A stretch of 64,000 nucleotides of DNA from the NCBI GenBank assembly GCA_000002445.1, contig CM000208.1, positions 2,944,001 through 3,008,000 of the forward strand, written 5' to 3'. Made by a program: the position numbers and the translations under genes. Positions 26,599 to 27,510 of the stretch are shown here, piece after piece (position 1 is the first letter of the stretch; every line of letters begins with the position of its first letter). The notes under the pieces are model-generated. The model did not search any database. It saw nothing but the letters and a program-made list of their open reading frames with translations, and was not told the origin of the DNA. This stretch comes from Trypanosoma brucei. Lineage: Eukaryota.

Positions 26599-27510
26599 CT
26601 ATTTTCCTAGCGTTACTGTTCCTCTATCTCCACACTCGCTCTCGTACGATACGTCTAGTTGTTCAGCAATTAAATTATTCTCGTCAGCATCGCCCAAATA
26701 AATCTTTCCCACGGGACACAATTGAGAGACAGGCATGTTGTTATCAGTTTTTACCTCTAACTCATCCAGAAAAGTACTGATCTCACTAAGACCACCCCGT
26801 CCTATCATCCCCAAATTAAAATCTTGAGCGTGCTCATTCAAAAACCGTACGCAGCGGGTGCAGTGAATACAACGATTGAGTACTACACGTGTCTGCGGAT
26901 CAAAATAAAAGTCTTGAACCGCACGCTTATCTTCCTTATATCGTGGAATATCAGTTCCATAATTCATGCTTACGTTCTGAAGGTCGCAATTTGTTGCTTG
27001 TTCACAAATCGGGCAGTCATTTGGGTGATTGATAAGAATAAGTTCGACGTTGCCTTCGCGGGCATCACGAACCAGCCTGCTATCAGTTATTATCGACATA
27101 CCGGGAAGTGCTACCGTGGCACAAGAAACAACGAGATTTTGCGTCCCATCGACTTGAACGAGACACATCCGGCAGTTACCTGCTACAGATAAAATTGGGT
27201 GATAACAAAATTTAGGGACGCGAATGCCTTCCCGCTCAAGCACCTCAAGTAAGTTTTCTTCCTGTGGTATAATCTCAACGGGACGCTTGTTAACAAACAT
27301 GATAGCACGAGGTTTATGCTCCCCATACTGACCGGCGGCAACTCCCTCCGATAAAGCCTCCACGCCGCCCCTGTGAGTATGCTCACTCCCATACAAGTTG
27401 TTCGCCGCATCTCTATTATAGGGTGTCCCATCCGATTTAAAGAACCGTTTACTGTCGCCAACGGGAGTAATGGCACCAAAACAGAGCAAGCAGTTAGAAA
27501 AACGCCTCAT
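26599..27510 (-). CDS. Fe-S protein homologous to the N-terminal domain of NADH dehydrogenase 75-kDa subunit (NuoG/NDUFS1-like), 303 aa, short form
   Basis: 2Fe-2S pattern C-x10-C-x2-C-x13-C (CYHPILSVAGNCRMCLVQVDGTQNLVVSC). His-ligated 4Fe-4S pattern H-x3-C-x2-C-x5-C (HPNDCPICEQATNC). A third site C-x2-C-x2-C (CIHCTRC). Basic N-terminus resembling a mitochondrial presequence. No molybdopterin-like C-terminal domain follows in any frame. Confidence 0.75.
   Translation of the reverse strand: MRRFSNCLLCFGAITPVGDSKRFFKSDGTPYNRDAANNLYGSEHTHRGGVEALSEGVAAGQYGEHKPRAIMFVNKRPVEIIPQEENLLEVLEREGIRVPKFCYHPILSVAGNCRMCLVQVDGTQNLVVSCATVALPGMSIITDSRLVRDAREGNVELILINHPNDCPICEQATNCDLQNVSMNYGTDIPRYKEDKRAVQDFYFDPQTRVVLNRCIHCTRCVRFLNEHAQDFNLGMIGRGGLSEISTFLDELEVKTDNNMPVSQLCPVGKIYLGDADENNLIAEQLDVSYESECGDRGTVTLGK

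What the first reader, a model, noticed from the sequence alone, without database searches (positions are those of the whole stretch)
26599..27510. Stand-alone short homologue of the complex-I 75-kDa subunit Fe-S domain
The ORF contains the full NuoG/NDUFS1 N-terminal cluster-binding set (2Fe-2S C-x10-C-x2-C-x13-C, H-x3-C-x2-C-x5-C, C-x2-C-x2-C) and then stops at 303 aa. No continuation of the molybdopterin-like domain appears in any frame over the next 1 kb. Either trypanosome complex I uses a radically shortened 75-kDa subunit, or this is a separate electron-transfer module of an [FeFe]-hydrogenase-like N-terminal domain type.
Basis: partly seen in the sequence, partly recalled or inferred. 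Interest (0 to 1): 0.5.

Follow-up and report, generated by a model that had tools for sequence, protein, structure and literature searches.

The report
Trypanosome short complex-I NDUFS1 subunit
This gene encodes the Trypanosoma brucei version of the largest iron-sulfur subunit of respiratory complex I; it keeps only the cluster-binding front third, and this shortening is real but has already been described for trypanosomes and their relatives.

Summary
The ORF at 26599..27510 on the minus strand encodes 303 aa. It carries all 12 ligands of clusters N1b, N5 and N4, and three Pfam domains score above their curated cut-offs. It stops 33 residues after the last ligand motif (CPVG). The roughly 1 kb downstream is closed by stops in all three frames, and a tblastn search found no NuoG C-terminal domain anywhere in the 64-kb window.

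The protein is identical to T. brucei brucei TREU927 XP_823459.1, which GenBank calls 'electron transfer protein, putative'. I infer that this is Tb927.10.12540, the gene the literature lists as NDUFS1.

Orthologues of about 290-330 aa that end at the same point occur across kinetoplastids, prokinetoplastids and diplonemids. Euglena has a 385-aa NDUFS1A.

The literature already covers this. A 2025 paper on the diplonemid mitochondrial proteome calls C-terminal truncation of NDUFS1 'a feature of Euglenozoa'. The 2024 Euglena cryo-EM structure shows NDUFS1A in complex I with one 2Fe-2S and two 4Fe-4S clusters, next to a separate NDUFS1B. NDUFS1 was also detected by mass spectrometry in complex I of three trypanosomatids.

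What fills the place of the C-terminal domain in trypanosomatids remains open.

The parts
26599..27510 (-). Complete CDS of T. brucei NDUFS1 (303 aa plus stop). I infer it is Tb927.10.12540. It is identical to XP_823459.1 / Q388Y9_TRYB2.
27301..27510 (-). aa 1-70: an N-terminal region absent from bacterial NuoG. It holds a basic MRRF... start that looks like a presequence (inferred) and a conserved segment specific to kinetoplastids (...AAGQYxEHKPRAIMF). The model predicts a helix at aa 43-62.
   Evidence: alignment; AF2 model; the targeting signal is inferred and was not tested
27061..27300 (-). aa 71-150: 2Fe-2S ferredoxin-like domain (cluster N1b), with ligands C102, C113, C116 and C130.
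   Evidence: Pfam Fer2_4/Fer2; motif; invariant columns; pLDDT about 90
26950..27060 (-). aa 151-187: His-ligated 4Fe-4S site (cluster N5), with ligands H162, C166, C169 and C175.
   Evidence: Pfam NADH-G_4Fe-4S_3
26704..26886 (-). aa 209-269: 4Fe-4S ferredoxin-like domain (cluster N4), with ligands C214, C217, C220 and C265 (in CPVG).
   Evidence: Pfam Fer4_Nqo3
26602..26703 (-). aa 270-303: a short acidic tail (KIYLGDADENN...) in place of the roughly 450-aa molybdopterin-enzyme-like domain. The start of the tail is conserved in trypanosomatids. The model predicts a helix at aa 275-294.
25571..26598 (-). Non-coding stretch downstream of the stop (3' UTR and intergenic). It has stops in all three frames and no NuoG similarity.

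Best explanation
This is the nuclear gene for the NDUFS1 (75-kDa/NuoG/Nad11) core subunit of mitochondrial complex I in Trypanosoma brucei, in the shortened form shared by all Euglenozoa. The protein is imported into the mitochondrion; the presequence is inferred. It folds into the [FeFe]-hydrogenase-like N-terminal domain and binds one 2Fe-2S cluster (N1b) and two 4Fe-4S clusters (N4 and the His-ligated N5). In the NADH-oxidising N-module it takes electrons from the FMN/N3 site of NDUFV1 and passes them along N1b, N4 and N5 to the NDUFS8 clusters and on to quinone. The cofactor-less C-terminal domain that makes up two thirds of the canonical subunit is not encoded here. In Euglena a separate polypeptide, NDUFS1B, occupies that position. 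In trypanosomatids it is either occupied by a subunit not yet recognised or left empty. Shown here: the domain content, the ligand set, the truncation point, its conservation across the phylum, and the affinity to mitochondrial NDUFS1. Taken from the literature: physical membership of complex I. Inferred: cluster loading and the electron path in T. brucei itself.
For: Three Fe-S domains score above the Pfam cut-offs. TIGR01973 NuoG scores 241 bits over model positions 2-197 only, against 134 bits for the [FeFe] hydrogenase A6 model and 110 bits for HoxU. The best PDB matches are mitochondrial 75/78-kDa subunits (E 6e-58 and weaker, aa 71-270), and Euglena NDUFS1A (8iuf_1A) also matches. Foldseek of the AF2 model gives NDUFS1 of Chlamydomonas, cattle and Polytomella as top hits (E about 1e-14), with 8iuf_1A at rank 49. 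All 12 ligands are invariant in the 15-sequence alignment and 11 of 12 in the 72-sequence one, where C217 is at least 90% conserved. Orthologues of 280-330 aa end 10-40 aa after CPVG in Trypanosoma, Leptomonas, Angomonas, two isolates (PhF_6, PhM_4) that I take to be prokinetoplastids, and Diplonema. The protein is an exact match to TREU927 XP_823459.1 and to the T. equiperdum entry 'NADH-ubiquinone oxidoreductase complex I subunit'. Literature: Euglena NDUFS1A carries 1x 2Fe2S and 2x 4Fe4S in the solved supercomplex. Truncation is called 'a feature of Euglenozoa'. NDUFS1 is listed as Tb927.10.12540 and was detected by mass spectrometry in complex I of Phytomonas serpens, Novymonas esmeraldas and Sergeia podlipaevi. 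Tb927.10.12540 was quantified in a T. brucei proteome.
Against: No structure or purification of T. brucei complex I was examined here, so its presence in the T. brucei enzyme rests on orthology and on data from other trypanosomatids. The AF2 model has low confidence over the two 4Fe-4S regions (pLDDT 45-58). It cannot show that those sites are intact beyond the conservation of the ligands. The protein fails the NCBIfam NuoG whole-protein cut-off (241 against 470 bits) because two thirds of the model has no counterpart. Complex I is dispensable in cultured T. brucei (from my own knowledge of the field), so function in this species cannot be argued from essentiality.
Confidence: 0.92

Rival explanations
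1. The gene is a truncated pseudogene or an assembly or frameshift artefact of a full-length NDUFS1 gene.
For: Only the bare fact that the protein covers positions 2-197 of the 606-position NuoG model.
Against: There is no NuoG C-terminal similarity in any frame downstream or anywhere else in the window. An identical protein occurs in independent Trypanozoon assemblies. The truncation point is shared by dozens of euglenozoan orthologues at 60-88% identity with all ligands kept, which indicates purifying selection. The protein has been detected by mass spectrometry.
Confidence: 0.01
2. The protein is a stand-alone electron-transfer module of the hydrogenase/HoxU type that works outside complex I, as the GenBank name 'electron transfer protein' suggests.
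For: The same three-cluster module does occur in HoxU, [FeFe] hydrogenases and formate dehydrogenases. Complex I is not essential in cultured T. brucei (my own knowledge), yet the gene is kept intact, and an identical copy is present in T. equiperdum.
Against: Scores against mitochondrial NDUFS1 are far higher than against HoxU or hydrogenases: 199 bits against at most 99 bits in the PDB search, and 241 against 134 and 110 bits in NCBIfam. The Euglena orthologue sits in complex I in a solved structure. Trypanosomatid NDUFS1 was identified in complex I preparations. Nothing in the window or the cited papers points to a hydrogenase or formate dehydrogenase partner.
Confidence: 0.04
3. The protein is a genuine complex I subunit that also has a second role, for example as an Fe-S donor or acceptor for the fatty-acid-synthesis-like module at the tip of the euglenozoan peripheral arm, made possible by loss of the C-terminal domain.
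For: In Euglena the split of NDUFS1 contributes to docking of the FAS-like domain. Trypanosomatids share several of those subunits: NDUTB2/3/12/17 correspond to NDUEG3/5/2/1. The tail start KLYLGDADENN and the N-terminal extension are conserved within trypanosomatids.
Against: There is no direct evidence. The Euglena paper found no enzymatic activity for the FAS-like subunits. In Euglena the docking surfaces involve NDUFS1B and a C-terminal hairpin of NDUFS1A. The T. brucei protein is too short to contain that hairpin: it has 33 residues after CPVG against about 131 in Euglena.
Confidence: 0.03

Closest known systems
Euglena gracilis NDUFS1A (PDB 8iuf chain 1A; He et al. 2024, PMC10884005)
   Same: It is a nuclear-encoded, short NDUFS1 that holds only the N-terminal Fe-S domain, with one 2Fe-2S and two 4Fe-4S clusters. 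It comes from the same phylum and matches in both sequence and fold.
   Different: Euglena has 385 aa and keeps about 131 residues after CPVG. According to the paper these include one beta-strand of subdomain II and a helical hairpin. T. brucei has only 33 residues after CPVG. Identity is only about 34%, lower than to canonical NDUFS1. Euglena has a known partner, NDUFS1B; none is known for trypanosomatids.
Canonical mitochondrial NDUFS1 / bacterial NuoG (Nqo3), TIGR01973
   Same: The N-terminal 200 residues are clearly orthologous: 44-48% identity, and all ligands of N1b, N4 and N5 are conserved.
   Different: The whole molybdopterin-oxidoreductase-like C-terminal domain of about 450 aa is missing, and the sequence diverges immediately after CPVG (CPVGKIYLGD... 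against CPVGALTSKPYAF...). The protein scores below the family's whole-protein cut-off.
Diplonema papillatum Nad11 (DIPPA_25374; PMC12699882)
   Same: It is a 291-aa orthologue (P0074) with the same domain content and the same truncation point.
   Different: Identity is 45-53%. The N-terminal extension and the tail differ in sequence.
Split nad11 of stramenopiles (brown algae, diatoms, eustigmatophytes; PMC4824035)
   Same: These are independent breaks of the same protein at the same domain boundary, and short N-terminal-only products of 272-306 aa appear among the hits (P0084, P0092, P0099).
   Different: In stramenopiles the C-terminal half is recognisably encoded elsewhere, in the nuclear or the mitochondrial genome. 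In kinetoplastids and diplonemids no recognisable C-terminal half has been reported.
HoxU / [FeFe]-hydrogenase N-terminal domains
   Same: They have the same three-cluster electron-wire fold.
   Different: Similarity is much lower, and no hydrogenase catalytic partner is in evidence.

Membership tests
NDUFS1 / NuoG (complex I 75-kDa subunit) | 2Fe-2S ferredoxin-like domain with four Cys ligands (cluster N1b) | tested here: met
   Fer2_4 E 8e-13. C102/C113/C116/C130 are present and invariant.
NDUFS1 / NuoG (complex I 75-kDa subunit) | H-x3-C-x2-C-x5-C site for the His-ligated 4Fe-4S cluster N5 | tested here: met
   NADH-G_4Fe-4S_3 E 2e-15. H162/C166/C169/C175 are invariant.
NDUFS1 / NuoG (complex I 75-kDa subunit) | C-x2-C-x2-C ... 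C-P site for 4Fe-4S cluster N4 | tested here: met
   Fer4_Nqo3 E 3e-16. C214/C217/C220/C265 are invariant in the 15-sequence alignment; C217 is at least 90% conserved in the 72-sequence alignment.
NDUFS1 / NuoG (complex I 75-kDa subunit) | C-terminal molybdopterin-oxidoreductase-like domain of about 450 aa, and a whole-protein score above the TIGR01973 cut-off | tested here: not met
   The match covers model positions 2-197 of 606 and scores 241 bits against a 470-bit cut-off. No C-terminal domain lies downstream or elsewhere in the window.
NDUFS1 / NuoG (complex I 75-kDa subunit) | Closest relatives are complex I subunits rather than hydrogenases or formate dehydrogenases | tested here: met
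   In the PDB phmmer search, NDUFS1 scores 175-200 bits and hydrogenases or FDH at most 99 bits. All top Foldseek hits are NDUFS1.
NDUFS1 / NuoG (complex I 75-kDa subunit) | Physically part of the N-module of complex I | not testable with these tools
   Literature only: the Euglena structure and mass spectrometry of trypanosomatid complex I.
Euglenozoan short NDUFS1 (NDUFS1A type) | Protein of about 290-385 aa that ends shortly after the fourth N4 ligand, conserved across Euglenozoa | tested here: met
   Orthologues from kinetoplastids, two isolates I take to be prokinetoplastids, diplonemids and related transcriptomes all end 10-40 aa after CPVG. This matches the statement in PMC12699882.
Euglenozoan short NDUFS1 (NDUFS1A type) | A separate NDUFS1B polypeptide supplies the C-terminal domain, as in Euglena | not testable with these tools
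   I could not obtain the sequence of 8iuf chain 1B. It did not appear in any of five sequence searches of the PDB. Four of those lists were complete to E 10: NuoG C-terminal phmmer, mid-domain profile, C-terminal motif profile and RsmH. The full C-terminal profile search showed only the best 60 of 93 hits. No trypanosome counterpart is listed in the literature tables.
HoxU / [FeFe]-hydrogenase electron-transfer module | Best match to hydrogenase-type models, and association with a hydrogenase catalytic subunit | tested here: not met
   HoxU 110 bits (cut-off 333) and FeFe_hydrog_A6 134 bits (cut-off 765), both well below the NuoG score. No partner gene is seen in the window.

The most novel reading that the evidence does not exclude
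Kinetoplastid (and diplonemid) NDUFS1 may be the most reduced form of this core subunit known. It ends 33 residues after the last cluster ligand and lacks even the beta-strand and hairpin that Euglena NDUFS1A keeps to dock NDUFS1B. If so, trypanosomatid complex I either works with no equivalent of the NDUFS1 C-terminal domain or fills that place with an unrelated lineage-specific subunit that nobody has yet identified. My evidence does not exclude either outcome. The Euglena replacement has no sequence similarity to the canonical domain that I could detect, and published tables list no trypanosome counterpart.
Probability: 0.5. Interest if true: 0.4.

Novelty: already known. Interest (0 to 1): 0.12.

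Why it matters
The finding itself adds nothing new. The gene is annotated, the truncation has been published as a trait of the whole phylum, and a structure of the Euglena counterpart exists. It is still a clean example of a 'core' complex I subunit losing two thirds of its length while keeping the electron wire intact. It also points to a real gap: no structure of a trypanosomatid complex I was found in the library searched, and what replaces the NDUFS1 C-terminal domain there is unknown. That domain normally shapes the N-module and binds NDUFS4, NDUFS6 and NDUFA6. The answer therefore bears on how the parasite enzyme is assembled and on whether it has lineage-specific surfaces. One small practical point: the GenBank product name for TREU927 and DAL972 ('electron transfer protein, putative') is less informative than it could be.

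Tried and rejected
(1) Frameshifted or nearby C-terminal domain. I translated all three downstream frames and ran tblastn of a full-length alphaproteobacterial NuoG against the whole window. Nothing was found.

(2) Fishing the Euglena NDUFS1B sequence (8iuf chain 1B) out of the PDB sequence set, so that I could then search for a trypanosome counterpart. I tried five queries:
- phmmer with the Sinorhizobium NuoG C-terminal domain at E<=10;
- a six-sequence profile of mitochondrial and bacterial C-terminal domains, where 1B was not among the best 60 hits (E down to 3e-4) and the other 33 hits were not shown;
- a profile of the NDUFS1-specific middle region;
- a profile of the C-terminal FYxTDxIxRxSxxMAxC motif;
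- E. coli RsmH, because the Euglena transcript was auto-annotated as that methyltransferase.
None retrieved it. This fits the published remark that it has 'little sequence similarity'. The search for a trypanosome NDUFS1B could therefore not be run.

(3) The 527-aa ORF at 3501..5084 has no Pfam match and happens to be exactly as long as Euglena NDUFS1B. A PDB search at E<=10 gave no hit to 8iuf, so this is a coincidence.

(4) A literature search for a trypanosomatid complex I structure found none in the held library.

(5) Acestor et al. 2011 (the T. brucei respiratome paper) is not held, so I could not check whether NDUFS1 was seen in T. brucei preparations themselves.

(6) The AF2 model was only moderately confident (mean pLDDT 66). 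I did not use it for any argument about interfaces.

Full report
**What is there.**
The window contains an ATG-initiated ORF of 303 codons on the minus strand at 26599..27510. Its product matches three Pfam domains above their curated cut-offs: Fer2_4 (aa 81-144), NADH-G_4Fe-4S_3 (aa 151-187) and Fer4_Nqo3 (aa 209-269).
- C102-x10-C113-x2-C116-x13-C130;
- H162-x3-C166-x2-C169-x5-C175;
- C214-x2-C217-x2-C220.

All twelve ligand positions are invariant in a 15-sequence alignment that includes bacterial NuoG and a canonical NDUFS1 fragment. In the 72-sequence alignment eleven are invariant and C217 is at least 90% conserved.

**The truncation is real.**
The protein ends 33 residues after CPVG. 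On the minus strand, the roughly 1 kb between the stop codon and the next gene (25571-26598) has stop codons throughout all three frames. A tblastn of a complete 693-aa Sinorhizobium meliloti NuoG (fetched) against the whole 64-kb window aligns only NuoG residues 2-210 to 27306..26701 (E 1e-51). Nothing matches the C-terminal 480 residues; the best noise hit has E 0.6. NCBIfam's NuoG equivalog model matches only positions 2-197 of 606 and scores 241 bits, below the 470-bit cut-off.

**Whose gene it is.**
The sequence is an exact match to T. brucei brucei TREU927 XP_823459.1 / Q388Y9 ('electron transfer protein, putative') on a 4.05-Mb contig. It also matches a T. equiperdum entry named 'NADH-ubiquinone oxidoreductase complex I subunit, putative'. 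The surrounding genes all lie on the same strand, as expected for a trypanosome polycistron. They include two tandem P-type ATPase genes and a DnaJ/CSL-zinc-finger gene immediately downstream. The literature lists T. brucei NDUFS1 as Tb927.10.12540. The link between that identifier and this ORF is my inference: it is the T. brucei NDUFS1 homologue I found, and the contig size fits chromosome 10, which I know from memory.

**What it is related to.**
The best matches among solved structures are the 75/78-kDa subunits of mitochondrial complex I from algae, plants, animals, fungi and Tetrahymena (E 6e-58 to 1e-50, aa 71-270, 44-48% identity). Hydrogenase and formate dehydrogenase modules score far lower. 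One hit is an unusual 385-residue chain, 8iuf_1A, named NDUFS1a.

An AlphaFold2 model built from 72 homologues was only moderately confident. Mean pLDDT was 66: about 90 over the 2Fe-2S domain and 45-58 over the 4Fe-4S regions. Foldseek still placed NDUFS1 chains at the top (E about 1e-14), with 8iuf_1A at rank 49.

In the large protein collection, orthologues of 280-330 aa at 60-88% identity occur in T. cruzi, T. rangeli, T. melophagium, Leptomonas and Angomonas. They also occur in many unnamed environmental sequences and in two isolates (PhF_6, PhM_4) that I take to be prokinetoplastids. At about 50% identity there is a 291-aa orthologue in Diplonema papillatum. All of them end 10-40 residues after CPVG. 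The truncation therefore predates the split between kinetoplastids and diplonemids, and the gene is under purifying selection.

**What the literature already says.**
- He et al. 2024 (PMC10884005) solved the Euglena gracilis I+III2+IV supercomplex. They report that NDUFS1 is split into NDUFS1A (385 aa; one 2Fe-2S and two 4Fe-4S clusters) and NDUFS1B (527 aa; no cofactor), which correspond roughly to the N- and C-terminal domains.
[quoted passage not shown] It adds that no counterpart of the C-terminal part or of the Euglena replacement could be found in Diplonema.
- A 2021 Parasitology paper on trypanosomatid NADH dehydrogenase activities (PMC8312217) lists NDUFS1 as Tb927.10.12540 and detected NDUFS1 by mass spectrometry in complex I of three trypanosomatids.
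- Tb927.10.12540 is quantified as a complex I subunit in a T. brucei proteome.
- Independent splits of the same protein at the same domain boundary are documented at least four times in stramenopiles (PMC4824035). Their short products appear among my hits.

**How it most likely works.**
The protein is the Fe-S wire of the N-module. Electrons from NADH enter at the FMN of NDUFV1, pass through N3, then through N1b, N4 and N5 in this subunit, and go on to the NDUFS8 and NDUFS7 clusters and to quinone. The ligand set and the domain order are shown here. The path itself is established knowledge for complex I and is confirmed structurally for the Euglena orthologue. Cluster loading in T. brucei is inferred.

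The C-terminal domain of mitochondrial NDUFS1 carries no cofactor and acts as a scaffold, so losing it need not interrupt electron transfer. The T. brucei protein keeps only 33 residues after CPVG, against about 131 in Euglena NDUFS1A (8iuf_1A has 385 residues, and its residue 254 aligns to query residue 270). It is therefore too short to contain the strand and hairpin through which Euglena NDUFS1A docks NDUFS1B. Within trypanosomatids the start of the tail (K[IL]Y[LM]GDADENN) and an N-terminal extension (...AAGQYxEHKPRAIMF) are conserved. The model predicts each region to contain a helix. I read these as lineage-specific contact elements, but this is inference only.

**The open point, and what I could not do.**
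I tried to find out whether trypanosomatids have an NDUFS1B equivalent. For that I needed the sequence of 8iuf chain 1B, but it did not appear in any of five searches of the PDB sequence set:
- a NuoG C-terminal domain searched by phmmer;
- a six-sequence profile of C-terminal domains;
- a sub-profile of the NDUFS1-specific middle region;
- a sub-profile of the C-terminal motif;
- RsmH, after the transcript's automatic annotation.

Four of those hit lists were complete to E 10. The full C-terminal profile search showed only the best 60 of 93 hits, so a weak match to 1B there cannot be ruled out. Euglena NDUFS1B therefore has no sequence similarity to the canonical domain that I could detect. 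This fits the published remark, and the follow-up search could not be run. Published tables of euglenozoan-specific subunits map several T. brucei NDUTB proteins to Euglena NDUEG subunits but map none to NDUFS1B. No trypanosomatid complex I structure turned up in the held library. A 527-aa ORF in this window, the same length as NDUFS1B, proved unrelated.

**Verdict.**
It is, however, an annotated gene with a published explanation at the level of the phylum and a solved structure of a close analogue. Novelty is 'already known' and interest is low. The residual interest lies in the unidentified or absent replacement for the C-terminal domain in trypanosomatid complex I.

Noticed in passing
window 15445-18183 (-) and 19133-21895 (-): Two tandem P-type (E1-E2) cation ATPase genes of 912 and 920 aa are 98% identical at the nucleotide level over almost their whole length. 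They diverge sharply only in the last roughly 250 nt, so the two proteins have different C-terminal tails. The pattern looks like gene conversion that stops short of the 3' end.
   Followed up: partly
window 37978-38631: A 138-bp unit is repeated 4.7 times at 97% identity inside the N-terminal part of a 933-aa ORF (35851-38652, minus strand) that has WD40 repeats near its C-terminus. This corresponds to a 46-aa tandem repeat in the protein.
   Followed up: no
window about 50000-57600: This 7.6-kb stretch has very low G+C (0.32-0.38, against about 0.48 elsewhere) and no ORF of 200 aa or more. The short ORFs there translate to low-complexity sequence. It lies in the middle of what otherwise looks like one minus-strand polycistron. 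No Rfam family and no tandem repeat scoring 80 or more were found in it.
   Followed up: partly
window 25070-25570 (-): The gene immediately downstream of NDUFS1 encodes a 166-aa protein with a DnaJ domain followed by a CSL zinc ribbon. I recall this architecture as that of DPH4-type diphthamide biosynthesis proteins.
   Followed up: no
window 26599-27510; GenBank XP_823459.1 / XP_011778675.1: Product names differ between records for the same protein: 'electron transfer protein, putative' in T. b. brucei TREU927 and T. b. gambiense, but 'NADH-ubiquinone oxidoreductase complex I subunit, putative' in T. equiperdum.
   Followed up: yes
proteins P0107, P0108, P0110, P0112: Metagenome proteins of only 212-213 aa carry the same three Fe-S domains, and their sources label them NuoG. 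They may represent further independent N-terminal-only forms, bacterial or organellar. Their origin was not examined.
   Followed up: no
PDB 8iuf chains 1A and 1B versus this protein: The T. brucei protein is closer to canonical mitochondrial NDUFS1 (44-48% identity) than to Euglena NDUFS1A (about 34%). Euglena NDUFS1B did not appear in any profile search built from canonical C-terminal domains. The Euglena pair therefore seems to be evolving unusually fast.
   Followed up: partly
window 3501-5084 (-), 22322-24874 (-), 29493-30386 (-), 62983-63978 (-): Four sizeable ORFs (527, 850, 297 and 331 aa) have no Pfam match at E<=0.001. The 527-aa one also has no PDB sequence match.
   Followed up: partly
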